A stretch of DNA of 64,000 nucleotides from positions 30,077,400 to 30,141,399 of the forward strand of contig NC_090384.1 in NCBI RefSeq assembly GCF_036365525.1, given 5' to 3'. The notes under the pieces are model-generated. The model had not been told where the DNA came from. It ran no database searches and saw nothing but the letters and a program-made list of their open reading frames with translations. Below, in pieces: positions 23,119 through 62,570 of this stretch. This DNA is from Heterodontus francisci. Lineage: Eukaryota. Made by a program: the position numbers and the translations under genes. Position 1 is the first letter of the stretch; every line of letters starts with the position of its first letter.

Positions 23119-23487
23119 TGTTCATTCACAGGATGTGGCCATTATTGCCAAGGCCAGCATTTATTGCCATCCCTAATTGCCCTAATAGTTTGATGCAACT
23201 GAGTGGTTTACTAGGACATTTCAGAAGGCAGTTAAGAGTCAGTGACATTGCTGTGGGTCTGGAGTTATATATAGGCCAGACTGGGTGAAGATGGCAGATT
23301 TCCTTCCCTAAAGGACATTAGTGAACCAGATGGATTTTTGTGACAATCTGGTAATTTCATAATCACCAGATTATGGATACTAGCTTTTATTTCAGATTTA
23401 TTTAATTAGCTGAACTTAAATTCCCCAGCTGCCATGGTGGGACTTGAACTTGTATCCAGATAATTAGTCCAGGCCTCTGGACTACTA
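23119..23487 (-). mobile_element. SINE-B, 3' portion (5' head displaced to 25922-25960)
   Basis: Reverse complement matches 12180-12530; sequence breaks at ctggactacta. Confidence 0.85.
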
Positions 23488-23551
23488 TAATAAAACAAAA
23501 TGTGCTGGAAAATACTCAGCACCTCTTGCAGCATCTGTGGAGAGAGAAGCA

Positions 23552-23590
23552 AAGTTAACATTTCAAGTCAGTGACCTTTCATCAGAACTG
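23552..23590 (-). ncRNA. Minimal type I hammerhead ribozyme motif in the Penelope terminal repeat
   Basis: Minus strand: cagtt CTGATGA a aggtc-act-gactt GAAA tgtt aacttt. Confidence 0.65.
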
Positions 23591-25123
23591 GCAAAGGTTA
23601 GAAATGTAATAGGTTTTAAGCAAGTAAAGTGGGGGTGGGGCAAAAGAGAACAAAAGGGAAGGTGTTGATAGGACATAGAATAACTGACGAGGAGGTCATG
23701 GGGCAAAGGCAAAGTGTGTGTTAATAGTGTGGTGAAAGACATAGCATTAGTGCAGAGAGGGTGTTAAATGACAGAATAATGAAAGCCCTAGCCAAAAGCA
23801 CAAACATGAAAAACAGCACTGGGCAGGCACATGGTAAAAAAAATTGAATGATGCAACAAACTAAAATAAAATGAAAAAAAAAGTAAAACTAAAAATAACT
23901 AAAGGGGGGGGGGCGTGGGGAGATGGGGGGCAGTCATGCTCTGAAATTATTGAACTCAGTGTTCAGTTCGGTAGGCTGTAGCGTGTCTAATCGCTAAATG
24001 AGGTGCTGTACCTCGAGCTTGCATTGATCACTGGAACACTGCAGCAAGCCCAGGACAGAGATGTGGGCATGAGAGCAAGGAGTGTGTTGAAATGGCAAGC
24101 GACAGGAAGCTCAAGGTCATGTTTTAGGACTGAGTGGAGGTATTGTGCAAAGTGGTCACCCAATCTGTGTTTGGTCTCCCCAGTGTAGAGGAGACCGCAT
24201 TGTGAGCAGCGAATACAGTATACTAAATTGAAAGAAGTACAAGTAAATTGCTGCTTCACCTGAAAGGAGTGTTTGGAGCCTGGGATAGTGAGGAGAGTGG
24301 AGATAAATGGGCAGGTATTACACCTACTGCGATTGCTTGGGAAGGTGCCATGGGAAGGGGACGAGGTGGTGGGGGTAATGGAGGATTGGACCAGGGTGTC
24401 ACGGAGGGAACAGTCCCTTTGGAATGCTGACAGGAGGGAAAGATGCGTTTGGTAGCGGCATCACACTGGAGATGGCAGAAATGGCAGAGGATAATCCTTT
24501 GGATCTGGAAGCTGGTGGGGTGGAAAGTGAGGACAAGGGGAATCCTGTCGCGGCTCTAGGAGGGAGGTAAAGAGGTGTGGGAAATGGGCTGGAAACGGTT
24601 GAGGGCCCTGCCAACCACAGTGGCGGGAATCCTCGGTTAAGGATAAAGGAATACATATCTGAAGCGCTGTTGTGGAAGGTTGCGTCATCAGAGCTGATAC
24701 GTCGGAGACGAAGAAACTGGGGGAATGGAATGGAGTCCTTACAGGAGGCAGGGTGTGAAGAAGTGTAGTCGAGGTAGCTGTGGGAGTCGGTGGGCTTATA
24801 ATGAATATTCATAGACAGGCTATCCCCAGAGATGGAGACAGAGAAGCCGAGGAAGGGAAGTGTCAGAGATGGACTATGTGAAGGTGAGAGAAGGGTGGAA
24901 ATTGGAAGCAAAGTTGATAAAAATTTCTAGTTCAGGGCAGGAGCAGGAAATGGCACTGATTACAGTCATCAATGTAGCAGAAAAAGAGTTGGGGGAGGGG
25001 ACCTGAGTAGGACTGGAACAAGGAATGTTCGGCACATTCCACAAGACAGGCATAGCTAGGACCCATGTGGATACCCATAGCAACACCTTTTACTTGGAGG
25101 AAGTGAGTGGAGTTGAAGGAGAA

Positions 25124-25480
25124 TTTTATTTTATTTTTTTTTTTAGAGATACAGCACTGAAACAGGCCCTTCGGCCCACCAAGTCTGTGCCGACCATTAA
25201 CCACCCATTTATACTAATCCTATATTAATCCCATATTCCTACCACATCCCCACCTTCCCTCAATTCCCCTACCACCTACCTATACTAGGGCAATTTATAA
25301 TGGCCAATTTACATATCAACCTGCAAGTCTTTGGCTGTGGGAGGAAACCGGAGCACCCGGCAAAATCCCACACAGTCACAGGGAGAACTTGCAAACTCCG
25401 CACTGGCAGTACCCAGAATTGAACCCGGGTTGCTGGAGCTGTGAGACTGCGGTGCTAACCACTGTGCCACTGTGCCGCCC
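25124..25480 (-). mobile_element. HE1-like V-SINE, full length, nested in Penelope
   Basis: tRNA head GGGCGGCACAGTGGCACAGTGGTTAGCAC..GGGTTCAATTC; V-domain-like GGGTGCTCCGGTTTCCTCCCACA; CR1-type tail GGGCCGAAGGGCCTGTTTCAGTGCTGTATCTCT followed by (TAAAA)n. Confidence 0.9.
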
Positions 25481-25921
25481 AAGTTGTTCAATGTGAGAAC
25501 AAGTTCAGCCAGGCGGAGGAGGGTGGTGGTGGATGGGGACTAGTTGGGCCTCTGTTCAAGGAAGAAGCGGAGAGCCCTCAAACCATCCTGGTGGGGGATG
25601 GAAGTGTAGAGAGATTGGACGTCCATAGTGAAGAGGAGGCGGTTCGGGCCAGGAAACTGGAAATTGTCAAAATGACGTAGGGCGTCAGAAGAGTCATGGA
25701 TGTGGTTGGGAAGAGACTGGACTAGGGGAATCTGTCAGAACAGTCCTGTTTATGGATTTTAGGAAGGAGGTAGAAGCGGGCTGTCCGGGGTTGCAGAACT
25801 ATGAGGTTAGAAGATGTAGGGGGAAGATCTCCAGAGGAAATGAGGTCAGTGACAGTCCTGTGGACAGTAGCTTGACGTTCGGTGGTGGGGTCATGGTCCG
25901 GGAGAGGTAGGAAGAGGCAGG

Positions 25922-25960: not shown

Positions 25961-26829
25961 TGTGATGAGATTTTCCCGAAATGAAGTTTTACTGATGAAA
26001 GTAACATTAATGACCTAAAACCATTGAAGCATTTTGAATAAAATGTTACTTGTATAGTGTTGTAATTCCCTGGAAAATGTTTTCTTTAGGCTTAGTTATT
26101 GTGCTGGGAGCCTGAGACGCGATTGAGAGTATTTAGCTAGAGATTCAGTTCTTAATTTCCTGTGGACATTGTGATCCCCAAGATGAGTACTTCAAAGGGA
26201 TCTTTCTGCTACCTCAGCAGTTGTGACTGCTTTTACTATTGCTGTTACCACTGTCTCAGTTTTACTGCCTTGGTCAATTTCTCAGTCCCTTTTCTATTCT
26301 GCCAAATGGCGCATTCCATCTCCACTTTGTGTCCCACTGCCCGTTCCACCTGATAGTGTGAAACCACCACCTTTGCAGTGCTGCCATGTTCCATGTCTCT
26401 GAGCTTAATGCTGCCTAATGCCACGTGATGTTACTTCCCAATGCTCTCAAATGTTGGCACTCACCTTCCCATATCCCAGTGATCGCTTCCCCTCTCCTCA
26501 CCCAAGTGCTCTAAACATCAAGGCAACTTCTGGTGCTTCCAAAATGCAGCTTTTTCCTGTGCTTCAGGACCCCACCCGTATTTGCAGAAGACAAACAGAT
26601 TTCCACATCACAGCTTCATCCACCCCCACTGACCTCTGAAGAATGATGTCAGACACTACTCTCTCGCCACTTTCTTCCCCCACTCCCCACCAAACTCCCT
26701 GTATGTCTTTGCCAAGCCTAATTCACTGTTTCCACAAGGAATGACACTCCCAGAATTCCCTCTAGGTTTTGTTATGTCTTACATTCCTGTTCCATGTGCT
26801 TCATCCTTTTTTCCTCCTCCCCTGCCCCT

Positions 26830-29800
26830 TCCTTTCTCTCTCCGCCCCCCCTCTCTTTCTCTCTCCGCCCCCCCTCTCTTTCTCTCTCCGCCCCCCCTCT
26901 CTTTCTCTCTCCGCCCCCCCTCTCTTTCTCTCTCCGCCCCCCCTCTCTTTCTCTCTCCGCCCCCCCTCTCTTTCTCTCTCCGCCCCCCCTCTCTTTCTCT
27001 CTCCGCCCCCCCTCTCTTTCTCTCTCCGCCCCCCCTCTCTTTCTCTCTCCGCCCCCCCTCTCTTTCTCTCTCCGCCCCCCCTCTCTTTCTCTCTCCGCCA
27101 CCCCTCTCTTTCTCTCTCCGCCCCCCCTCTCTTTCTCTCTCCGCCCCCCCTCTCTTTCTCTCTCCGCCCCCCCTCTCTTTCTCTCTCCGCCCCCCCTCTC
27201 TTTCTCTCTCCGCCCCCCCTCTCTTTTTCTCTCCGCCCCCCCTCTCTTTCTCTCTCCGCCCCCCCTCTCTTTCTCTCTCCGCCCCCCCTCTCTTTCTCTC
27301 TCCGCCCCCCCTCTCTTTCTCTCTCCGCCCCCCCTCTCTTTCTCTCTCCGCCCCCCCTCTCTTTCTCTCTCCGCCCCCCCTCTCTTTCTCTCTCCGCCCC
27401 CCCTCTCTTTCTCTCTCCGCCCCCCCTCTCTTTCTCTCTCCGCCCCCCCTCTCTTTCTCTCTCCGCCCCCCCTCTCTTTCTCTCTCCGCCCCCCCTCTCT
27501 TTCTCTCTCCGCCCCCCCTCTCTTTCTCTCTCCGCCCCCCCTCTCTTTCTCTCTCCGCCCCCCCTCTCTTTCTCTCTCCGCCCCCCCTCTCTTTCTCTCT
27601 CCGCCCCCCCTCTCTTTCTCTCTCCGCCCCCCCTCTCTTTCTCTCTCCGCCCCCCCTCTCTTTCTCTCTCCGCCCCCCCTCTCTTTCTCTCTCCGCCCCC
27701 CCTCTCTTTCTCTCTCCGCCCCCCCTCTCTTTCTCTCTCCGCCCCCCCCTCTCTTTCTCTCTCCGCCCCCCCTCTCTTTCTCTCTCCGCCCCCCCTCTCT
27801 TTCTCTCTCCGCCCCCCCTCTCTTTCTCTCTCCGCCCCCCCTCTCTTTCTCTCTCCGCCCCCCCTCTCTTTCTCTCTCCGCCCCCCCTCTCTTTCTCTCT
27901 CCGCCCCCCCTCTCTTTCTCTCTCCGCCCCCCCTCTCTTTCTCTCTCCGCCCCCCCTCTCTTTCTCTCTCCGCCCCCCCTCTCTTTCTCTCTCCGCCCCC
28001 CCTCTCTTTCTCTCTCCGCCCCCCCTCTCTTTCTCTCTCCGCCCCCCCTCTCTTTCTCTCTCCGCCCCCCCTCTCTTTCTCTCTCCGCCCCCCCTCTCTT
28101 TCTCTCTCCGCCCCCCCTCTCTTTCTCTCTCCGCCCCCCCTCTCTTTCTCTCTCCGCCCCCCCTCTCTTTCTCTCTCCGCCCCCCCTCTCTTTCTCTCTC
28201 CGCCCCCCCTCTCTTTCTCTCTCCGCCCCCCCTCTCTTTCTCTCTCCGCCCCCCCTCTCTTTCTCTCTCCGCCCCCCCTCTCTTTCTCTCTCCGCCCCCC
28301 CTCTCTTTCTCTCTCCGCCCCCCCTCTCTTTCTCTCTCCGCCCCCCCTCTCTTTCTCTCTCCGCCCCCCCTCTCTTTCTCTCTCCGCCCCCCCTCTCTTT
28401 CTCTCTCCGCCCCCCCTCTCTTTCTCTCTCCGCCCCCCCTCTCTTTCTCTCTCCGCCCCCCCTCTCTTTCTCTCTCCGCCCCCCCTCTCTTTCTCTCTCC
28501 GCCCCCCCTCTCTTTCTCTCTCCGCCCCCCCTCTCTTTCTCTCTCCGCCCCCCCTCTCTTTCTCTCTCCGCCCCCCCTCTCTTTCTCTCTCCGCCCCCCC
28601 TCTCTTTCTCTCTCCGCCCCCCCTCTCTTTCTCTCTCCGCCCCCCCTCTCTTTCTCTCTCCGCCCCCCCTCTCTTTCTCTCTCCGCCCCCCCTCTCTTTC
28701 TCTCTCCGCCCCCCCTCTCTTTCTCTCTCCGCCCCCCCTCTCTTTCTCTCTCCGCCCCCCCTCTCTTTCTCTCTCCGCCCCCCCTCTCTTTCTCTCTCCG
28801 CCCCCCCTCTCTTTCTCTCTCCGCCCCCCCTCTCTTTCTCTCTCCGCCCCCCCCTCTCTTTCTCTCTCCGCCCCCCCCTCTCTTTCTCTCTCCGCCCCCC
28901 CCTCTCTTTCTCTCTCCGCCCCCCCCTCTCTTTCTCTCTCCGCCCCCCCTCTCTTTCTCTCTCCGCCCCCCCTCTCTTTCTCTCTCCGCCCCCCCTCTCT
29001 TTCTCTCTCCGCCCCCCCTCTCTTTCTCTCTCCGCCCCCCCTCTCTTTCTCTCTCCGCCCCCCCTCTCTTTCTCTCTCCGCCCCCCCTCTCTTTCTCTCT
29101 CCGCCCCCCCCTCTCTTTCTCTCTCCGCCCCCCCCTCTCTTTCTCTCTCCGCCCCCCCCTCTCTTTCTCTCTCCGCCCCCCCCTCTCTTTCTCTCTCCGC
29201 CCCCCCCTCTCTTTCTCTCTCCGCCCCCCCCCTCTCTTTCTCTCTCCGCCCCCCCCCTCTTTCTCTCTCCGCCCCCCCCTCTTTCTCTCTCCGCCCCCCC
29301 CTCTTTCTCTCTCCGCCCCCCCCTCTTTCTCTCTCCGCCCCCCCCTCTTTCTCTCTCCGCCCCCCCCTCTTTCTCTCTCCGCCCCCCCCTCTTTCTCTCT
29401 CCGCCCCCCCCCTCTTTCTCTCTCCGCCCCCCCCCTCTTTCTCTCTCCGCCCCCCCTCTCTTTCTCTCTCCGCCCCCCCTCTCTTTCTCTCTCCGCCCCC
29501 CCTCTCTTTCTCTCTCCGCCCCCCCTCTCTTTCTCTCTCCGCCCCCCCTCTCTTTCTCTCTCCGCCCCCCCTCTCTTTCTCTCTCCGCCCCCCCTCTCTT
29601 TCTCTCTCCGCCCCCCCTCTCTTTCTCTCTCCGCCCCCCCTCTCTTTCTCTCTCCGCCCCCCCTCTCTTTCTCTCTCCGCCCCCCCTCTCTTTCTCTCTC
29701 CGCCCCCCCTCTCTTTCTCTCTCCGCCCCCCCTCTCTTTCTCTCTCCGCCCCCCCTCTCTTTCTCTCTCCGCCCCCCCTCTCTTTCTCTCTCCGCCCCCC

Positions 29801-30627
29801 CTCTCTTTCTCTCTCCGCCCCCCCTCTCTTTCTCTCTCCGCCCCCCCTCTCTTTCTCTCTCCGCCCCCCCTCTCTTTCTCTCTCCGCCCCCCCTCTCTTT
29901 CTCTCTCCGCCCCCCCTCTCTTTCTCTCTCCGCCCCCCCTCTCTTTCTCTCTCCGCCCCCCCTCTCTTTCTCTCTCCGCCCCCCCTCTCTTTCTCTCTCC
30001 GCCCCCCCTCTCTTTCTCTCTCCGCCCCCCCTCTCTTTCTCTCTCCGCCCCCCCTCTCTTTCTCTCTCCGCCCCCCCTCTCTTTCTCTCTCCGCCCCCCC
30101 TCTCTTTCTCTCTCCGCCCCCCCTCTCTTTCTCTCTCCGCCCCCCCCCTCTCTTTCTCTCTCCGCCCCCCCTCTCTCTTTCTCTCTCCGCCCCCCCCCTC
30201 TCTTTCTCTCTCCGCCCCCCCCCTCTCTTTCGCTCTCCGCCCCCCCCTCTCTTTCTCTCTCCGCCCCCCCCCTCTCTTTCTCTCNNNNNNNNNNNNNNNN
30301 NNNNNNNNNNNNNNNNNNNNNNNNNNNNNNNNNNNNNNNNNNNNNNNNNNNNNNNNNNNNNNNNNNNNNNNNNNNNNNNNNNNNNNNNNNNNNNNNNNNN
30401 NNNNNNNNNNNNNNNNNNNNNNNNNNNNNNNNNNNNNCCGCCCCCCCCTCTCTTTCGCTCTCTCTCTCTCTCTCTCCGCCCCCCCCCTCTCTTTCGCGCT
30501 CTCTCTCTCTCTCTCCGCCCCCCCCTCTCTTTCGCTCTCCGCCCCCCCCCTCACTTTCGCTCTCTCTCTCTCTCTCTCCGCCCCCCCCCCCTCTCTTTCG
30601 CTCTCTCTCTCTCTCCGCTCCTCCCTC
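26830..30627. repeat. 23-bp minisatellite (CCGCCCCCCCTCTCTTTCTCTCT)n, about 150 copies before the gap
   Basis: Directly visible; 22-25-bp variants around 28850-29450 and near the gap; degenerate copies after the gap. Confidence 0.98.
30285..30437. other. Assembly gap (153 N)
   Basis: Run of N inside the minisatellite. Confidence 1.
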
Positions 30628-31053
30628 TTGGGAAACAATGCCGTTTTCACTGAGCTGCGCTATGGAAGGTGATAAATGTTTTAAAAAACCTTGCAGCTAT
30701 GTACGAATGAACTTCATTCAGATGAGGAATAATGTGCACTGCAGTCGGTTAAAGAATTACTCCACCTGAGGTTTGCTGGGGTGTTATAGGTGCTTAACCT
30801 CCTTAGAAGGGCTAAATGCCAAATGATATGCATGATAGAGGGGAAGAGAGAAAAATGTGTGCACCATAAATACACATTTTGCAACACGGAATATGTTGCC
30901 ATTATATTCTGTAACAAAGCAAAGAAAATGCAACAGTGTCATCTTATAACTCTGGTGACGCACAATATCTTTGGGTTTTCACTTTGTGAGATTGGCAGCA
31001 ACCCTGAGGCAAAGAGTTGAAAGCAACGAAGAGTACGCAAAGTTGTATCATTA

Positions 31054-45014: not shown

Positions 45015-45164
45015 TAATAAAAGCAAAATACTGCGGATGCTGGAAATCTGAAACAAAAACAAGAAATGCTGGATTCACTCAGCAAGTCTGGCAGCATCTG
45101 TGGAAAGAGAAGCAGAGTTAACATTTCGGGTCAGTGACCCTTCTTCGGAACTATTTATTTCTTG
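45015..45164 (-). mobile_element. Penelope terminal-repeat insertion with a hammerhead-like motif (45114-45152)
   Basis: 14-bp direct flanks ACGCATTATTTCTT (45001-45014 and 45165-45178); minus strand agtt CCGAAGA a gggtc-act-gaccc GAAA tgtt aactct. Confidence 0.8.
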
Positions 45165-47592: not shown

Positions 47593-48012
47593 TTTTTTTT
47601 TTAATTCATTCACTGGATTGTTGCTAGCAAGGCCAGCAATTATTCTCATTCTTAATTGTCCTTGAGGTATGTTGAGCGACTTTCTTGAATACAATGGAGC
47701 GGCTTGCTAGGCAATTTCAGAGGTCAGTTAAGAGTCAACTACATTGCTATGGGTCTGAAGTCACATATAGGCCACACCAGGTAATGACAATAAATTTCTT
47801 TCACCCAAAGAGAATTGGTGCACCAGATGAGTTTTTCTGACAGTCTGGTAGTTTCATAGTCACTGTTACTAATACTAGCTTTTTATTCCAGATTTATTTA
47901 ATTGAATTTACATTTCCCAGCTGCTGTAGTGGGATTTGAACTCCTGTCTCCAGCTCATTAGTCAAAGCCTCTAGATTACTAGTCCAGTAACATAACCACT
48001 ATGCTACCGTAC
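47593..48012 (-). mobile_element. SINE-B, full length
   Basis: Reverse complement collinear with 12135-12538; poly(T) at 47593-47602. Confidence 0.85.
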
Positions 48013-49009
48013 CAACCATTACAGGTGAAGCATCCCTATCCTAACAGCCTTCTGTGTTTAAAGAAAAGGCTCTGGCCCCCCCTACTTTATTCGGTGATTT
48101 TTTTTTTAAACCCTCTAGTTACCAGTTCAAAGACCGAAGGAAATAGGATTTATCTTGTCAAAGCTACTTTGTAGCTCTGAACATCTATAATCTCTCAACC
48201 TCTTTTTTTTTTATAATTAAAAATGGAGCGAGTACTTAAGGTCATTACATCCATCATTTTTATTATGCTAATAGCCTGATCAGTATTGATACATTGGGTC
48301 AACCATCTTTGATATATGATTGGATGCTAACTAGTCAAGCCATAATTCGTATCTTGGAACAGAAAAATAATGCAACGAGCAAAATTCTGATTAAAAATGA
48401 CGTGGAATGCAAAGCCCATAAGTGATTTTAATTTTGAACAGATTAAAAGTAAGACTATCACTGGGCATGAATTAAATCCAATATACACCGTAAATCACAT
48501 TGTGTTCACAGCATACAAAATCAAAGAACACTGAAAAATAACAGATTGATTATCCCCACCATTTTGACTTGGAGTTCAGGATGCTGCCAGTACATATTCT
48601 CCTTATGCAACTTTGCACAGGTTCCACAGTACTGTTTCTTACGAGGGGAGATGTTGTAAGCTTACTGTGCATCTGTCAATGTTTCTGACTCTGGGGATGA
48701 TTGAAGATTTGCTGTTCAAATTATATCAAAATTGATTTTTAAAAAATTTTTTATTCGAAGACATCGAGCTAGATACTAGAAAATCTAATGTACAAATATG
48801 GTCCCTTTTGGGTTCCAGAGGAAGAGAAAAACAGTATGTCTGTTGCCAACTCTTATGTACTTCAAATTATCTGGCTGAGATGCATTTGTGGCTTGCTGTA
48901 CCTTCATGCTTCTAGAGGCTTAGGCAGGGTAGTGTACTCTTTGGTTAAAAATCACTGGTTTGGTTTCTTAGTTAATTTGAGTGCAAAATGCCTTATTCCT
49001 TAGGTTATG

Positions 49010-51194
49010 GGACTGGTTTCAATCTCACATTGGAGAGCTGGAACCTGTCATAGCTGCTAAGCGCACTGCACTGCTGAACTACAAGAAAGCCCCCAGCGAG
49101 TTAACATCCGTAGCACTTAAAGCAGCCAGAAGCGCTGCACAAAGAACAGCCAGGCGCTGTGCAAATGACTACTGGCAACACCTATGCAGTCATATTCAGC
49201 TGGCCTCTGACACCGAAAATATCAGAGGAATGTATGATGGCATTAAGAGAGCTTTTGGGCCAACCATCAAGAAGATTGCCCCCCTCAAATCTAAATCAGG
49301 GGACACAATCACTGACCACGCAAGCAAATGGACCGCTGGGTGGAACACTACCTAGAACTGTACTCCAGGGAAAACATTGTCACTGAGACCGCCCTCAATG
49401 CAGCTCAGTCTCTGCCAGTCATGGGTGAGCTGGATGTACAGCCAACAAAATCGGAACTCAGTGATGCCATTGATTCTCTAGCCAGCGGAAAAGCCCCTGG
49501 GAAGGATGGCATTACCCCTGAAATAATCAAGAGTGCCAAGCCTGCTATACTCTCAGCACTTTACGAACTGCTTTGCCTGTGCTGGGACGAGGGAGCAGTA
49601 TCATAGGACATGCGCGATGCCAATATCATCACCCTCTATAGAACAAGGGTGACTGCAACAACTACTGTGGAATCTCCCTGCTCAGCATAGTGGGGAAAGT
49701 CTTCGCTCGAGTCGTTTTAAACAGGCTCCAGAAGCTGGCTGAGCGTGTCTACCCTGAGGTACAGTGTGGCTTTCGAGCAGAGAGATCCACCATTGACATG
49801 CTGTTGTCCCTTCGCCAGCTGCAGGAGAAATGCCGTGAACAACAGATGCCCCTCTACGTTGCTTTCATTGATCTCACCAAAGCCTTTGACCTCGTCAGCA
49901 GACGTGGTCTCTTCAGACTACTAGAAAAGATTGGATGCCCATCAAAACTACTAAGTATCATCAACTCATTCCATGACAATATGAAAGGCACAATTCAGCT
50001 TAGCAGTGCCTCATCAGACCCCTTTCCTATCCTGAGTGGCGTGAAACAGGTCTGTGTTCTCGCACCTACACTGTTTGGGATCATCTTCTCCCTGCTGCTC
50101 TCACATGCGTTCAAGTCTTCAGGAGAAGGAATTTTCCTCCACACAAGATCAGGTGGCAAGTTGTTCAACCTTGCCTGTCTAAGAGCGAAGACCAAAGTAC
50201 GGAAAGTCCTCATCAGGGAACTCCTCTTTGCTGACAATGCTGCTTTAACATCTCACACTGAAGAATGTCTGCAAAGACTCATCGACAGGATTGCGGCTGC
50301 CTGCAACGGATTTGGCCTAACCATCAGCCTCAAGAAAACGAACATCATGGGACAGGACGTCAGAAATGCTCCATCCATCAATATCGGCGACCACGCTCTG
50401 GAAGTGGTTCCAGAGTTCACCTACCTAGGCTCAACTATCACCAGTAACCTGTCGCTTGATGCAGAATTCAACAAGCGCCTGGGAAAGGCTTCTTCTCTTG
50501 GCCAGTCTGGACATAGCAGAGTGTGGGAAAATGGCACACTGACACAGAACACAAAAGTCCAAGTGTTTCAAGCCTGTGTCCTCAGTACCTTGCTCTACGG
50601 CAGCGAGGCCTGGACAACGTATGTCAACTCATTCCATCTTCGCTGCCTCCGGAGAATCCTTGGCATCAGGTGGCAGGACTGTATCCCTAACACAGAAGTC
50701 CTCGAGGCCCCAGCATATACACCCTACTAAGCCAGTGGCGCTTGAGATGGCTTGGCCATGTGAGCCGCATGCAAGAAGGCAGGAACCGAAAGGACACATG
50801 GTACAGCGAGCTCATCACTGGTATCAGACCCACTGGCCGTCCATGTCTTCACTTTAAAGACGTCTGTAAACACGACATGAAGTCCTGTGACATTGATCAC
50901 AAGTCGTGGGAGTGAGTTGCCAGCGATCACCAGAGCTGGCGGGCAACCATAAAGGCGGGGCTAAAGCGTGGCGAGTCGAAGAGCCTTAGCAGTTGGCAGG
51001 AAAAAAGACAGAAGCACAAGGAGAGAGCCAACTGTGTAACAGCCCCGACAACCAATTTTATCTGTAGCGCCTGTGGAAGAGTCTGTCACTCTAGAATTGG
51101 CCTTTATAGCCACTCCAGGCGCTGCTTCACAAACCACTGACCACCTCCAGGCACTTACCCATTGTCTCTCGAGACAAAGAGGCCAAAGAAGAAG
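49010..51194 (+). mobile_element. Relatively young 5'-truncated RTE LINE containing a 346-codon RT ORF (49690-50730)
   Basis: KAPGKDGI, QCGFRAERSTIDM, FIDLTKAFDLVSR, GVKQ.CVLAPTLF, LLFADN (catalytic DD changed to DN), FTYLGS, LLYGSEAW; C-terminal CxxC..H; (GAA)n tail. Confidence 0.95.
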
Positions 51195-52047: not shown

Positions 52048-52247
52048 GGGTACATTTTTCAGGTCAAGAAAAATGTGCTCTTCTGAGTCTGAACTACCCT
52101 TTGTATATGGCGAGAAGCAAGTTGTCTCTTCCACAGTTTGGAGGAACTTCCTGCAGCATCACCCATATTGTGTAACTCTTGATACGTTGAGCATAATCCT
52201 AGCAGTGGCCTTCAAGTCCTGGTTCAATATCATCGTTGATTTTTTTT

Positions 52248-52416
52248 AAAAAAGCAAAATACTGCAGATGCTGAAAATAAAACCAGAAAATGCTGGAAAT
52301 ACGCAACAGGTCTGGCATCAGGGTTCTGATGAAAGGTCACTGACCTGAAACGTTAACTCACTTTCTCCAAAGATGCTGCCAACTCGCTGAGTATTTCCAA
52401 CATTTTCTGTTTTTAT
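52248..52416. mobile_element. Inverted pair of Penelope terminal-repeat fragments
   Basis: aataaaaccagaaaatgctggaaatac... is the inverted counterpart of ...gtatttccaacattttctgtttttatt. Confidence 0.8.
52320..52359 (+). ncRNA. Minimal type I hammerhead ribozyme motif with an intact core
   Basis: GGGTT-CTGATGA(52326-52332)-a-AGGTC act GACCT-GAAA(52347-52350)-CGTT-AACTC: conserved boxes, stem II, palindromic stem III and stem I. Confidence 0.75.
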
Positions 52417-53651
52417 TCCATCATTGATGAGGACTCTTGTATTGACTGACATTTTAGGCTGAATTCCTGGTTTACCAGGCAGAGTGCACTGCCTATAGGG
52501 CCTAACCATTGTGATCATCCTATGAACCCTGGCATATACAAGTTCTAACTGCAGCTCATATGTGATTGCGGGAGCATCCCCCAAAATCCTGGTTGGCATG
52601 GATTGAAGAATTTATTCAAGATTGCTCAGCCTGAGGCAAGCATGGATGCTGGGGCTAAACCAGGAACAATTCTTTGAAATGTGGTTCTGGTCCTGGCTCC
52701 TTAGCATTTGACTGGCATGTCAGCAGTAACCCTCATATAAACCATGTGGCTAGCATCCAGAATATGCTGCACTCCTTCTGAATGAGGTAACTTATTGAGA
52801 CATTTGAGACCATCAGAAGTTACCAGGCTCTGAACACAGGGTAGCACAATAATAAACATCAGCAACACTGCCTGGAAGTACTCCCCAGGGTCAACTGCCA
52901 GTTGCTCAATGAGGTCATTCACTAACGGTGTATCATATAGATTATACCTTGTGCCTTTCTTACAATGGATGTAATTTTATGTCCACCTGTTATAAATAAA
53001 GGCAGTTACAATTTTTTTTTAAAGTGCTTTAAGTTGTGTCTCTGGTTCTCTCTCTCGTGATGTCAAAACTGCAGAAGAATGAACTTGAGGTGTACATTGG
53101 TCCTAAACTATTGACACAAATGTAGTATATCTGTAATATTCAATGTAATACATTTGTTCGGGGAGGATTGTGAGCAAACTGCAGTGGCTGTTCATTTTTT
53201 GATAGGTTGGAGCTCAAATCAGTATTTTGAGAAGGGAAATAAGGTTAAGGAAATACGCAAATAAGACTACTTGATCATCTTGATGTCGGCAACAGAGACT
53301 CCAGAAATGTGTTTTAATACTGTTAACTAATGCAGTTCAGTATATTGTGGCATATATAGATTTGTAGACCCATTTTACATTTACTGCATTTTAATGTTCT
53401 TCAATCAGAGTAGCTTGTAACTTATGACTTAGTCTATTTTTTTCCAACCAGGAACTGATTCAAATGGATACAAAATTGATCAGGAACTTGATTCACCAAG
53501 ATCAGGCAACTTGCAAAATGTGAAAGTGGTGGAATGTTGCACTGTTTGAGTGCAGTGTATATTTTGTTAAACTGCGAATCAGTTATATCCACCATACATA
53601 TGCCTACAAAACAAATGTTTAAAGGAAATCTATTCAGTTGTACTATGCATT

Positions 53652-53729: not shown

Positions 53730-56149
53730 TAATATAAAAATCCTTTCTTAGATCCTGCAGCAAATATTTATATATAATACACATTTATATCTTCAGAGAT
53801 AATGAATATTCTCAGATGGCTATCTTGTAGTTTTTGTGAAACAAGAAGCTGGAAAAATAGAATGACTTTACAAATGATTGTACAATGAAAATTAACTGGC
53901 AGCTACAGTGCCACCAATTTGAAGTGATGTCATTATACTTTAGTGTTCACACGGTATTTCAGCAAGCAGCCTCTTTCAAGAAAAGCAGCTGGGAGACGAT
54001 CACTGAGAATAACAAGACGTTGCATGTAACAGTTTTTTAAATAGATGAAAGGGGTTAGTCTTGCAACTGCTCACTACATGACGCAAGATGTTGGGGTGGG
54101 TGGTGTTGCGGAGAGCATAGCAATTGCTGTTGGCTCAGCTGTTTTTTCACATCTTCACAAGACTCAGTTATTAAACCAGGAGCAATGATTTTCATCAGGG
54201 AAATGGGATGCTTGAAAAAAAATTACTGTCACACAGGACATTTAGCACTAGTGATCAATATTTTTGGCTACTCAGTAGAAAGCTGGTAATGTATTACCAT
54301 TTTGGAGAGTTGCAGCAGGAAGAAGGTGTATTTTTGTATCAGATATTGATGCAGAACCCTGAATACTGTGGACTTCTCCTTGGAGGGCAGGGGAAAATGG
54401 GGGAACGTATTTGAAGAACTGTGCGTGCAAGCCTGTGCAAGATCAAAACTGCAAAGATCAGTGGCTAGATTCTGAGTCAGAAGGATTGGACAGACTGGAC
54501 GTGCTGCATTCAGGATGCAGAACTGGTGGAGGCTTCTGGATATAATCTGCACTCTTTTGTCTTTATTGCACTGTTATCAAAGCAGAATGCTTTATAAATA
54601 TGTGACTTAAGTGAAATACAAGAGTTTTGGTATGTAAATTACTGAACTATATACTATTGTTACCTCATGAACTATGAGCTTCATAAAATTCACTAAAATC
54701 CAACAGAAAATATTTTTTAAGTTAGCTTTTAAAAGGAATTATTTTCAATGATATTAGCTAGTAATACAAAAAACTGCTGATTTGCAGTCTGAAGAAAGAT
54801 TCTTGTCTCCCTTATGTTGCAATTTGGGGTAATATTCCATTTAAATAACTCCAGCTGAATATGGACAGTTTTCTGTTAAAGTGCAGATTTAAATGGTATT
54901 TCTTGCACATTTTTTTATTAATTAAAAGAACTGTTTGTCAAACATTAATTATTTTGATACTCTGCAATGATTCCTAATAATCCTTTGTATTCATGCTTCC
55001 TTGGTGTTCAGTATGTAATACTAAGTGTCCTCTTCAGAAAGGAAATTGAGAGGGGTGAAAGAGTGAACAGTGGTTCCAGTGAGTGCATTTTTGGAAACCC
55101 TGTATATTATTGGTCTCTGCTAAACAAATGACATTAAACCAAATGATACTTTTTCTGTTTGAGTTGTAATTGTTACTGGTCTGCATTCTAGTTATTAATT
55201 TTTAGTGAATTTTGTGCACTTTGCCAAAAGAAATGAAATGAATTAAGAGATTAGACTGATAAATCCATGCTTTTCTCATTTCTCCCGTATATTTCTGGGG
55301 AACATCATGGTAATATTTGCTTAATTATTAGGAATGTTTTTTTAAAGAGCGCATCATTTCTCACAAACTCAAGCAAGTTGTACTTATTTTTTTCTATCTT
55401 CCTTGTGGTGAAACACAATCCGATCAATGGTTTTGTTTAAAACAATGGCTAGAAAGCTCTTTTGTCTGCATGAAGATGATTGTAAAAGACCAAAACAATC
55501 AGGATTTTGGTAATGAATAATATCAATTTGTTACATTTCCTATTTTGCAGGATTAATATAGGGATTTCCTGCTTTTAACAAAAGCAAATGCTGGAGTGGA
55601 ACACTTCCATAACATTGTGGGCTAAGTATGAAGACTTAAAGCATTCATCTGAAATTCCTCTCTACTATTTTAGCAAAGATTTTAAATAGATGGGCTAATC
55701 GGTTCTACCAAAATAATGGAAATATTTCCAGGTGTAATTTCAAGGTCCTTGTTTTCCTGCACGTTAGAATTTATGTTCTCTTGGAATGGCCTGATCCTAT
55801 ATCTTAATGCATGTTTCTATCCATGGGAACATGGGTGCCCTCTTGCACTTGACTGATGAGATGTTCTTTATCTCCCTCCACGATTGGGTGAGTAATATAC
55901 ACAAGTGAACCAAAGAATAAATCGCATGTAAAGCAACTACCAATTCCACTGTGCTTCAATCGCTATGTTTCCGCAATCTGGCATAGGAGAAGATGGGGTA
56001 CTACAGTGGAGCTCAATGTGCAGAGGAATAATTTTTACCTGTCAATATGCTGAAAATTACCTGAATTTTGACCAGCTTGGTTATGTTGAAGTCATAAAGC
56101 ATCAGATTTCTAACTTAATTAAGTCACAAAGATATAATAAATCGAATGA

Positions 56150-56220
56150 TGCTAGAGGTTGATGCAGACTCGATGGGCTGAAGGGCCACTTCTGTACTGT
56201 ATTATTCTGTGATTCTGTTT
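56150..56220 (+). mobile_element. CR1/HE1-type 3' tail fragment
   Basis: gcagactcgatgggctgaagggcc..ttctgtactgta..attctgtgattctgt. Confidence 0.7.
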
Positions 56221-59200
56221 CTGGGTTAGGAGAGAATTGTTTTTCCACCTTGAGTTTGCAGTAATGTTCTTGGGCATTGTAATCTTTCAATTCTGTAACT
56301 CTTTGGCCTATAATTTACTTCACTAGCCCTCAATTGCAGTTACAAAGTTGAAGTATTAAATAATTGTGTAAATATGTAGAATATTTTAACCTAACATTTG
56401 TACTTCAATTTACTTTGATTGTTAGACAGCCATTTCTTGGCATAAGTGTCTCTGGTAAACGTACTACAAAATAAACTAGATTGTGTAGCTTCATCTAAAG
56501 GGATGAGGGAAATTGGAGTGCAAAAGTAATATTTTTCAGCCAGTATTTTAAATGTTCTTGTGCACTGTTTAAAAACAAAAAATCACTTTTTTTGTTTTTG
56601 CAGTTTGTGTGCTGTTGGTTTTTAGTAAAATTACATATCTTATGAAATGGACGTTTTCTTTGGCCAGCTAAAAAGTCAGGGGCTGTGGGAATTTAAAATT
56701 ACTGGAATGTGTGACTGCCTTAATTTCTTGGACTTCATATGCCCTTCAGTGGGCTTGCCAAATGAGTGTCTCTGTCAACTTAGATGTGCTGTCACAAGAA
56801 TACGTTTGAAGTTTTCAGTCTGTACTGAAAACCAGTTCCATTTTTAAAAAAAAATTTGTGTGGATAAAAGTTGAATAGATGTAATGTGCGAAAAAGGTCA
56901 AATAAGCTTTTCAGGTTACTGCTTCATGTTTGGTTTCAGAACTTAAATCACATTTCCCCCCCCCCCCCCCCCACCCCATTCACAAATAAAAATAAATCAT
57001 TTAAATAATTTCTGATGAATACTGCATATTTATTTTACCTTCTATTTGTAAAGGAGTCTGCTGGTAGGACACTGAGTCCTGCCACTTTCCAAGTCATCTG
57101 AATAATGGACCTTGCTTTCATATCTGCCATGCCTGATACTACCAAAAGGCTTGTGTTACTTATTCATTCAACATCTTCAGCACACTCCACTGTTGGGATT
57201 ATAGTCTAGTTCTGTGTGTTTTTGGAAAATCTTGTAGTCAATCACCTGAACATCGACTTTGATCTGAAACAATACGTCGAGTACCTGCTGGCTGAGGAGG
57301 GGGAAGGTGGGGCCTTGTTTACTCTGTTAGACGAGACCATGGCATTTATTGATTCGACTCCTTAAGCAAAACTGTCAAGAGTCTTTGCAGAATTAATAAG
57401 GGCCCTGGACCCATCTGCATCAGGGAAGACAAAACCTCTGTAGCCACTGGGACCTGCTTTAGAATGTCTTGACCGACCTTCAGGTGATTGGAAAAGAGAA
57501 TTCCTTGAGAGAGCAGCAAGATGGTAACAAATTAGCTGAGGGCAAATGATCACACCAGGATGTCAAATGCTCACAGATATTTTGATGTGAATGTTGTCCA
57601 AAGCTGCAGTCAAGCCCAGAGTGGTGGCATTTTTTTGAAATTCATATATGTTGTACAATGGGATTTTTCTTGGCTGCATCCCTGTGCATAACAATTACTA
57701 GGGTCTGAGCTGATGTATATAAATTATCAGCTGCTAATTCTAGAATAATCCAAATGTGCAGACTTGGCAGAATCCTTGTATAGCACTCCACTCCCAGGTA
57801 CGACATGCTACTCCAACTGTTTACCAGCATGGGAAATCCACCACATAGGACACCGACACTGAATTAACTGAGTGTCCAAGCAGGTAAATGCACATAATTG
57901 ACAAATCTTGGAACAGAGATCAATTCATGTTATGATGGCTATTCATTGGGTACAGTTTGTTCAGCCAAGGTCGTACAAATCCACGCGGTTGCTTAAGCAA
58001 ATTAGGGCATATTCTGTAGTCAATTACTGTCTTTTATTTTGGGCCAAATACAGCAAGTGGCAAAAGTCTATGTCCTAGCCTTGAGAGTTAGATACATGAG
58101 CAATGGGAGTAATGCTCTGCAAATTGTCTTGGCAGCATCTAGCATCATTCCCATCAGAATTTTAGAAACAACTAAAATGCACTGCCTTTTGACAAAAAGA
58201 TAATTTTGGGGACAAGTTTAGAGTTGCTGGAAGCTTGTAAGAAAAAGCACAAAACGTGTGCGCTATGAAAGCGAAGGCTCTGATCAGCAAGATAATTTTT
58301 AGGAGCTCTCCCTCCTTCCCCGTGCCATCATCAAGCAATGGCAGAGCCCACTCAGCAACTATTTCATGGAACTGCCCAGCTTCTGGACTCTAAAAGGCAC
58401 CTTTTGCATTACAGCATTTCTACAGTTATTTGATTCACCCAAAAGATCCTTCCAGGGATCCAAACTTTGCCTCAATAATTTGTCTGGTCATTGTCCACCT
58501 GGGACCCATGTTTAGGGGCAGCCTGTGGAAGTTTGCAATCATGTGAAGATCACTGAAGTTGCAATGATCCTAGATATTAATAGGGTAAGCTACTTATATT
58601 ATTTTGCAGAAACACCCATTGAGATTTGTCTAATCAAATGTAATCACTACGGGATATCAACGTAAAAGCTGTATTGTCAGCTGAGATAAACTTGCATGAG
58701 CGACATAGAATATTTTACCACAAACGGAGGAAACTGCATTTCTAATTCCCAAATATACATAGAGGCTCCTTCCCGTACTAGTCTGCAGAATGCTATAAGG
58801 AGTGATGCAAAATGACCATGCTGCTATTATCCAAATACTGGTATGCCTTAAAGCTTTTAAGGATTAGGTATAAGTGTTTAGTATCAGTTGAACTTCAAAT
58901 CAAATTGAACTGGTGCAATGGCACGGGTCTTGGTTTCTATCTGGTGAAAGAGTAAGGGACCGCAAGTGGTAGCTCCAATTTGTAACATCACATTTTTATT
59001 AATGTGCTTTTGGGGTAGTTTTAACTGGAAATGTCTTTTTTTCTAATCTTTTGGCATAGATTAGGGAAATCTTCCTTCAAAGAGATTACTTTGTGTACAT
59101 AGGAAAATGATTTAAAAATTAATAGGGATGGAGCACAAGAATGGTCCACAAGCATTCCCAATGCTTTAAACATCTGTCCATCAGTCATAGAAGGGGAATG

Positions 59201-62450: not shown

Positions 62451-62570
62451 AAAAATAAAAGCAACCTATCTATTTAACAAAAACAGAAAATACTGGAAAT
62501 ACTCAGCAGGTCAGGCAGCATCTGTGGAGAGAAAGAGTGTTAATGTTTCAGGTCGGTGAGATTTCATCCC
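62451..62570 (-). mobile_element. Penelope terminal-repeat fragment with a degenerate hammerhead
   Basis: aaaacagaaaatactggaaatactcagcaggtcaggcagcatctgtggagaga..gttaatgtttcaggtc. Confidence 0.75.

What the first reader, a model, noticed from the sequence alone, without database searches (positions are those of the whole stretch)
52320..52359. Intact minimal hammerhead ribozyme inside a self-inverted Penelope remnant
Seen: both catalytic boxes (CTGATGA and GAAA), a 5-bp stem II (AGGTC/GACCT), a loopless palindromic stem III (ACGT) and a stem I (GGGTT/AACTC), with a predicted GUU cleavage site after 52354. It sits within a ~170-bp inverted repeat. Established: Penelope-like elements carry minimal type I hammerheads, proposed to cleave as dimers through the palindromic stem III. 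Inference: this is the only copy here with an undecayed ACGT, so it could cut a plus-strand host transcript or pair in trans with other copies.
Basis: partly seen in the sequence, partly recalled or inferred. Interest (0 to 1): 0.7.

Follow-up and report, generated by a model that had tools for sequence, protein, structure and literature searches.

The report
Ordinary Penelope stub with intact hammerhead
This 39-base hammerhead ribozyme motif is real, but it is one of at least 16,052 equally intact copies left by a Penelope-type jumping gene, and across copies its core letters decay as fast as the neighbouring ones, so it likely has no job of its own at this spot.

Summary
The motif is there as described (52321-52359, predicted cut after 52354). 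It lies in a 178-bp head-to-head stub of an endonuclease-bearing Penelope-like element (Neptune-type linker), flanked by a 10-bp target duplication. Its exact 34-mer occurs 1,824 times and an intact-core pattern 16,052 times in this genome. Across copies the core is no better kept than the flanks (2.2% vs 2.3%, p=0.87), and the ACGT decays at CpG rate; about half of copies keep it. A plus-strand spliced transcript lies 1.6 kb downstream, but nothing links it to this copy. The family-level pattern is more informative: 35 of 90 copies picked by flank alone begin at the first bases of stem I, behind TATA/initiator-like motifs, and only 2 near the cut site, which likely marks the start of an uncut template RNA. 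This scan has noted that pattern many times before, in this genome and in others; I did not find it in print. Ordinary copy of a known kind.

The parts
52231..52240 (.). left target-site duplication (10 bp)
   Evidence: 9 of 10 identical to 52419-52428, the difference being a CpG-type change
52250..52320 (-). inverted arm: element positions about +129 to +52 (C of CTGANGA = 0), carries the optional ~35-nt tail, lacks the hammerhead, has a small deletion
   Evidence: alignment to the family majority sequence; blastn
52321..52322 (+). 2-nt junction between the arms (2-3 nt, alignment ambiguous); supplies the two outer pairs of stem I by accident
   Evidence: the family reads CCAGTT here
52323..52418 (+). 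forward arm: element positions -3 to about +95, ending at the tail-less 3' end; 89 of 98 aligned bases equal the family majority
52321..52359 (+). minimal type I hammerhead motif (stem I 52321-52325/52355-52359; core 52326-52332; extra A 52333; stem II 52334-52346; GAA 52347-52349; palindromic ACGT 52350-52353; predicted cut after 52354)
   Evidence: sequence, descriptor scan; activity not tested
52419..52428 (.). right target-site duplication
23487..25920 (-). longer remnant of the same family: broken RT/GIY-YIG reading frame, 3' repeat and hammerhead with ACGT decayed to ATGT; ties the motif to its parent inside the window
   Evidence: 81% identical over 117 aa to the C-terminal part of the open genomic ORF in L222
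45009..45151 (.). second head-to-head stub of the family (CCGAAGA core, ATGT), hammerhead on the minus strand
62476..62568 (-). decayed family stub (ACAT, damaged stem II)
53988..57000 (+). neighbouring low-depth transcript with a GT-AG intron (about 54630-55550); not shown to include the hammerhead
   Evidence: joint 54628>55550 in contigs of 2 of 3 runs of one sample

Best explanation
This is a short, likely inert insertion of a Penelope-like retrotransposon's end repeat, and the hammerhead is the element's own motif, carried along and likely still intact only because about half of all copies have not yet lost their CpG. Mechanism, step by step. Shown: the parent is a 3.3-kb unit with RT and C-terminal GIY-YIG; copies end at two 3' sites about 35 nt apart; about 4 in 10 flank-picked copies begin at the first bases of stem I and read straight through the predicted cut site; this copy is two such pieces joined head to head between target duplications. 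Inferred: the repeat is a polymerase II promoter (TATA-like word at -29, initiator-like CCAGTTC) whose transcript starts at the first base of stem I; the element's RT primes at a nicked AT-rich target, starts internally 95-135 nt into the uncut RNA (as shown in vitro for Anolis Poseidon), runs off the 5' end, and a second, oppositely primed or folded-back cDNA supplies the inverted arm. After insertion the motif decays neutrally. Selection on the fold likely acts only in the source elements. A lone copy would cut poorly: it needs a partner for stem III, and the flanking hairpin and misfolds compete.
For: Parent: open 874-residue frame with RVT_1 and GIY-YIG hits (both below Pfam's cut-offs), a CX4CX2C linker and CxxC in the nuclease; junction matches spaced 3,290-3,296 bp apart. 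Abundance: 1,824 exact 34-mers, 16,052 intact-core matches, 19,561 exact flank 41-mers, 51 flank hits in 600 kb of evenly spaced stretches. Neutral decay: core 14/640 vs flank 29/1236 (p=0.87, 64 flank-picked copies), 6/237 vs 39/1306 (p=0.84, 24 random copies); CpG of ACGT 29/128 and 7/46. Source-level constraint: subfamily differences fall on N7, loop II and the first pair of stem II (A-T 31, G-C 24, G-T 51, non-pairing 3 of 109, no A-C). Start pile-up: 35 of 90 at -6..0, 36 further upstream, 19 downstream, 2 within 2 nt of the cut (p about 3e-23 against uniform starts over -60..+39); 10 of 50 at -4..-1 in the random set. 12 of the 35 show a target duplication of 8 nt or more abutting the edge. 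16 of 19 adjacent inversions have an arm ending at -6..0 (two rows are one insertion). TTAAAA/TTATAA at the TATA distance in 39 of 68 long-copy hits. G before AGTT in 40 of 100 listed non-C cases vs A 28 (hand count; p=0.006) and in 10 of 20 plain ends, as a cap would give. Print: internal RT starts, uncut RNA as main template, no RNA ends at the cut site (PMC11167929); no monomer cleavage and low dimer cleavage for a minimal hammerhead (PMC4209133).
Against: Copies that read through the tail into the ORF start at -2/-1 in only 2 of 30 cases; 13 start further upstream and 15 downstream (p=0.011 among those that reach the motif), so one start site does not explain long copies. The start site is inferred from motifs only, and the same bases read as a branch point plus 3' splice site; D. 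virilis Penelope has an internal TATA-less promoter and an intron that ends at helix I. The cap-G excess is modest, and some G's lie inside target duplications. A plus-strand transcript is nearby, so a weak effect on a host RNA is not excluded. The decay test pools copies and cannot see selection on one locus. The flank-picked sample comes from the first 26 Mb of one contig and favours young copies.
Confidence: 0.72

Rival explanations
1. One reading: this copy is an active ribozyme that cuts a plus-strand host transcript, pairing in trans with another copy through ACGU, and matters to the host.
For: All core bases are present; a plus-strand spliced transcript lies 1.6 kb downstream; thousands of intact potential partners exist in the genome; dimer cleavage is reported for this class (PMC4209133; review PMC6765202).
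Against: No conservation of the core over flanks across copies; intact ACGT is the common state; no intact same-strand partner in the window; the double-hammerhead fold scores -13.7 kcal/mol against -17.6 for two misfolded monomers and -26.6 for an extended duplex (nearest-neighbour model, no tertiary terms); the 181-nt region folds into a long hairpin without the active core; A10.1-U11.1 instead of the usual G-C; the Anolis motif needed the element's protein to cleave.
Confidence: 0.07
2. Same inert stub, but the shared 5' edge comes from the RT stalling or switching template at a protein- or dimer-bound hammerhead, not from the RNA's 5' end.
For: The edge coincides with the first base of stem I; ORF-bearing copies rarely start there; short repeated words occur at some junctions.
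Against: RT meets the 3' strand of stem I first and has unwound a monomer by the time it reaches -4; 36 of 90 copies read through; TATA-like spacing and the G excess fit a capped start.
Confidence: 0.12
3. Same inert stub, but the edge is the 3' splice site CTAAY...CAG|TT, the template being a spliced or splice-cleaved RNA that begins at -2.
For: Branch-point and acceptor-like words lie right there; in D. virilis the intron ends at the 5' end of helix I (PMC4209133).
Against: 27 of 30 copies starting at -6..-2 carry the G at -3 and most the A at -4, which an exon start at -2 would lack; no shared upstream exon; 12 of 35 have the target duplication abutting the edge.
Confidence: 0.06
4. The short copies are a self-propagating SINE- or retrozyme-like family with its own source gene, inverted form included.
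For: Very high copy number and a shared start; animal retrozymes are reported as non-autonomous PLE derivatives (bioRxiv 10.64898/2026.07.22.740005).
Against: Short copies carry the same subfamily variants and both 3' ends as long copies, and every inversion junction differs; they are not tandem arrays of a short unit.
Confidence: 0.03

Closest known systems
Minimal hammerheads (min-HHR) of metazoan PLE pseudo-LTRs (Cervera and de la Pena 2014, PMC4209133; read parts 1-2 of 4 and searched supplement file 2)
   Same: Type I, no loop III, palindromic 15.2-16.2, unpaired base before stem II, 4-5 bp stem I, mostly solo in truncated copies, sometimes close pairs on opposite strands, thousands per vertebrate genome.
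   Different: Stem II is 5 bp (7-8 in Schistosoma); this copy has A10.1-U11.1, not G-C; copy number here is higher (at least 16,052 intact against about 4,000 and 9,000 in coelacanth and frog); no shark entry found in the searched supplement (file 1 not searchable).
EN+ Penelope-like elements of Neptune/Nematis type with inverted 5'-truncated copy and optional 30-40-bp tail (Craig et al. 2021, PMC8557442, Introduction and passages; Arkhipova et al. 2013, PMC3846280, passages)
   Same: RT plus C-terminal GIY-YIG, Zn-finger-like linker, partial tandems, inverted arm, tail on one end only, target duplication; a TATA plus Inr was proposed for a rotifer pLTR.
   Different: Here the insertion is only the first ~100 nt of the repeat plus an inverted arm; the sharp start at stem I was not in the passages I read. 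Clade rests on the linker motif; no tree was built.
Poseidon PAc of Anolis carolinensis (Frangieh et al. 2024, PMC11167929; read parts 1-2 of 4, supplements searched without hits)
   Same: Two internal RT starts about 100-135 nt behind the hammerhead, AT-rich targets, uncut RNA as template.
   Different: In PAc the ORF starts inside the hammerhead; here the likely ATG lies about 170 nt downstream, beyond the tail.

Membership tests
minimal type I hammerhead (min-HHR) | CUGANGA and GAAA boxes with NUH triplet | tested here: met
   CTGATGA 52326-52332, GAAA 52347-52350, GTT 52352-52354
minimal type I hammerhead (min-HHR) | stem II with an unpaired base at its 5' end, supported by covariation | tested here: met
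   5 bp, extra A 52333; first pair is A-T, G-C or G-T in 106 of 109 copies; few independent events
minimal type I hammerhead (min-HHR) | loopless palindromic stem III | tested here: met
   ACGT 52350-52353
minimal type I hammerhead (min-HHR) | stem I of 4-5 bp closing the motif | tested here: met
   5 bp with one G-U here; 4 bp AGTT/AACT in the family
minimal type I hammerhead (min-HHR) | usual G10.1-C11.1 pair (highly conserved, not obligatory) | tested here: not met
   A-U in this copy and its subfamily; G-C and G-U in others
minimal type I hammerhead (min-HHR) | self-cleavage as a dimer | not testable with these tools
   only folding energies, which disfavour the active dimer
Rfam hammerhead families | covariance-model match | tested here: not met
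   no hammerhead hit at E up to 1 in the window; the loopless form may simply not fit the models (inference)
EN+ Penelope-like element | single ORF with RT and C-terminal GIY-YIG linked to this repeat | tested here: met
   L152, L156, L218, L228 run from the repeat into the ORF; Pfam hits E 1e-5 and 2e-3, below curated cut-offs
EN+ Penelope-like element | direct/inverted pseudo-LTRs, optional 30-40-bp tail, target duplication | tested here: met
   3' ends at about +95-100 and +130-135; tail on one arm and a 10-bp duplication in this copy
Neptune/Nematis clade | CX2-5CxxC linker between RT and EN | tested here: met
   CNRRRCNTC in L222; definition from PMC8557442
Neptune/Nematis clade | placement in the RT tree | not tested
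   no named reference proteins were fetched
non-LTR retrozyme | tandem short units, each with a hammerhead | tested here: not met
   single head-to-head stub with one motif
host-domesticated ribozyme | core conserved above flanks or at orthologous loci | tested here: inconclusive
   not met across paralogous copies; orthologues in other species not available here

The most novel reading that the evidence does not exclude
The hammerhead occupies the first bases of the capped Penelope transcript, and stubs like this one are failed 'strong-stop' cDNAs: RT starts inside the uncut RNA, runs off at the cap, and normally transfers to the repeated stretch at the RNA's 3' end (or works on a cut-and-closed circle) to make the longer-than-unit copies. 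That would explain why short copies stop at -4 while ORF-bearing copies mostly run past it, and would make the pseudo-LTR work like a retroviral R region. Hundreds of thousands of stubs would map the pathway.
Probability: 0.2. Interest if true: 0.6.

Novelty: new member of a known kind. Interest (0 to 1): 0.17.

Why it matters
For this locus: little; it is one of many thousands of equivalent, decaying copies. For the family: what Penelope hammerheads do is still open in print (PMC8557442). The genome records that copied RNA was mostly uncut and began at stem I, which gives exact positions (-4/-3 against +29) for CAGE, cyclic-phosphate sequencing and in vitro RT tests. With at least 16,052 intact motifs, a strand-bias test in introns could also show whether stray hammerheads cost the host anything.

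Tried and rejected
Rfam scan: no hammerhead hit, one chance match. Folding of the 45-nt motif: z = -0.83, active core not predicted. Simple 'all copies end at the start site' model: failed on ORF-bearing copies. Host coding exon: 150 of 308 open frames of 45 aa or more in 30.8-64 kb scanned with Pfam, no credible hit; a crude exon scan, a piece covered at 47999-48165 and a suspected CpG island near 35 kb gave nothing. Pfam on the window's own Penelope fragments: no hit; identity came from the comparison with L222. Lunse et al. 2016 on dimer cleavage is not held and is known to me only through a review passage. Searches for the start pile-up in print (listings only, plus the passages named) found no report; subscription papers and bioRxiv supplements were not visible and may hold it. 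'Shark-like' for the organism is my recall of the repeat and the wording of earlier notes; no call tested it.

Full report
Observation. A descriptor scan found only this site and a decayed relative at 23585 with the family's full layout. CTGANGA alone is at background in the window (56 against 46.7), and Rfam reports no hammerhead. The 34-mer 52326-52359 occurs 1,824 times in the 6.0-Gb genome, reversed control 0.

Anatomy. The insertion spans 52241-52418 between 10-bp target duplications, 9 of 10 identical. A minus-strand arm (52250-52320; element +129 to +52, counting the C of CTGANGA as 0) carries the optional tail. After a 2-3-nt junction a plus-strand arm (52323-52418; -3 to about +95) carries the hammerhead and equals the family majority at 89 of 98 aligned bases. 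The arms pair over about 45 nt at 82%, not 170. The RNA is predicted to fold as a long hairpin (z = -4.2) without the active core; the motif alone misfolds too. Only GTT of stem I comes from the element.

Parent. In the window a minus-strand remnant at about 23487-25920 ends in the same repeat. Genomic copies run from the repeat through the tail into an ORF whose likely ATG is near +170. An open 874-residue frame (L222) has weak RVT_1 and GIY-YIG hits, below Pfam's cut-offs, a CX4CX2C linker and CxxC in the nuclease. By the definitions in PMC8557442 that is an EN+ Penelope-like element of Neptune/Nematis type. No tree was built. Tandem units recur at 3,290-3,296 bp.

Is this copy special? No. 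An intact-core pattern matches 16,052 times; 60 evenly spaced 10-kb stretches hold 51 flank hits, about 5e5 arms if extrapolated (50 analysed, two of them double hits on one copy). For an unbiased look I picked copies by a 41-nt flank that excludes the motif: 90 of the first 100 listed of 19,561 (left out: 3 already fetched by the motif, 2 partner arms, the last 5). Substitutions at ten invariant core positions run at 14/640 against 29/1236 in flanks (p=0.87), and 6/237 against 39/1306 in the random set (p=0.84); subfamily-diagnostic positions were excluded from the flanks. The CpG of ACGT is changed at 29/128 and 7/46 sites; GAAACGTT survives in 45 of 85 and 20 of 38 copies. One intact copy among four in the window is unremarkable. 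Constraint shows only between subfamilies: differences fall on N7, loop II and the first pair of stem II, which stays paired in 106 of 109 copies. One common subfamily has U4C (14 of 29 random copies), a change reported to lower activity in vitro while allowing viroid infectivity (PMC3088659, one passage).

Could it cut a host RNA? Contigs from 2 of 3 runs of one sample, guessed to be RNA, join 54628 to 55550 across GT..AG, so a plus-strand transcript lies 1.6 kb downstream. No contig links it to the copy, and no coding exon was found. In print, a Schistosoma minimal hammerhead did not cleave alone and cleaved weakly as a dimer (PMC4209133), and the Anolis motif cleaved only with the element's protein (PMC11167929). 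The double-hammerhead fold of two copies scores -13.7 kcal/mol, against -17.6 for two misfolded monomers and -26.6 for an extended duplex; this model lacks tertiary terms. The three other window copies are on the other strand and decayed. A weak effect is possible; function is unsupported.

How such stubs arise. Of the 90 flank-picked copies 35 start at -6..0 (27 at -5..-3), 36 further upstream, 19 downstream, and 2 within 2 nt of the cut; in the random set 10 of 50 start at -4..-1. 3' ends cluster near +95-100 and +130-135, matching the two internal RT starts shown for Anolis Poseidon. Twelve of the 35 have a target duplication abutting the edge, so no upstream exon came along. In 16 of 19 adjacent inversions one arm ends at -6..0, and the junctions all differ. 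Upstream, long copies show TTAAAA or TTATAA about 29 nt before the A at -4 (39 of 68 hits, some loci counted twice), and CCAGTTC fits the initiator consensus (recalled, not from a call). An extra G before AGTT is modestly enriched (40 G, 28 A, 32 T of 100 listed, hand count; 10 of 20 plain ends). I infer a capped start at the first base of stem I and run-off copying of uncut RNA. Against a single simple model: of 30 copies that continue into the ORF only 2 start at -2/-1, 13 start upstream and 15 downstream. Long copies therefore need read-through tandems, circles or strand transfer, which I cannot tell apart. The acceptor-like reading of the same bases is disfavoured because 27 of 30 copies starting at -6..-2 keep the G at -3.

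What is known. Minimal hammerheads in PLE repeats, solo copies in thousands, and opposite-strand pairs are described (PMC4209133, parts 1-2 of 4). Inverted arms, tails and target duplications are standard (PMC8557442, PMC3846280, passages), and a TATA plus Inr was proposed for one rotifer repeat, whereas D. virilis has an internal TATA-less promoter (PMC2377424, passages). Retrozymes are reported in one chondrichthyan (bioRxiv 10.64898/2026.07.22.740005, part 1 of 5 and passages). I did not find the start pile-up in five searches, but Lunse et al. 2016 was not held and one supplement file could not be searched. I had noted the pattern before looking at the scan's notes, which report it repeatedly: 79 notes in this genome fit 'hammerhead Penelope' (8 shown) and several from other genomes. 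These are unchecked AI notes, not support. One (e1-8654857, another genome) reports starts at the cut site, which this family does not show.

Verdict. Observation confirmed, interpretation partly supported. An ordinary, likely inert copy of a known class; interest 0.17. The bolder family-level reading, stubs as failed strong-stop products of an LTR-like transfer, has probability 0.2 and would merit 0.6.

Noticed in passing
window 53988-57000 (+): Low-depth transcript with a GT-AG intron of about 921 nt (54630-55550), unspliced contigs running into the intron, and AATAAA words near 56986-56996; no Pfam hit; looks like a 3' UTR or long non-coding RNA.
   Followed up: partly
window 45049-45151; L152, L228, L238, L239: A common subfamily, including long and tandem copies with little CpG decay, has CCGAAGA/CCGATGA (U4C) in the core together with a G-C first pair of stem II.
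   Followed up: partly
L152, L156, L228, about +140 to +170 of the repeat: A second pyrimidine tract ending in CAG lies two bases before the likely ATG of the ORF; a possible 5' UTR intron whose donor I did not find.
   Followed up: no
L099, L189, L198, L200, L079: Short words copied from the motif's first bases are repeated just before the 5' edge, as if RT stuttered or re-primed at the template end.
   Followed up: no
L069, L085: Copies that run about 130 nt into the ORF start and then jump into an upstream part of the repeat, giving short partial tandems with two hammerheads about 500 bp apart or less.
   Followed up: no
window about 25140-25480 (-): A tRNA-like SINE with an A-rich tail interrupts the RT frame of the Penelope remnant (label from recall).
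   Followed up: no
window about 26770-30650: Nearly 4 kb of a short C/T-rich tandem repeat with high CpG content, containing the 153-base N stretch (30285-30437); gives long spurious open frames.
   Followed up: no
window 49642-50730 (+): 362-residue open frame of a LINE-type reverse transcriptase (RVT_1, E 8e-27), unrelated to the Penelope copy.
   Followed up: partly
L003/L004 and L221/L222: Pairs of loci share the insertion and its flanks (24 kb and 1.0 Mb apart), i.e. segmental duplications or assembly duplicates; copy counts are slightly inflated by such cases.
   Followed up: no
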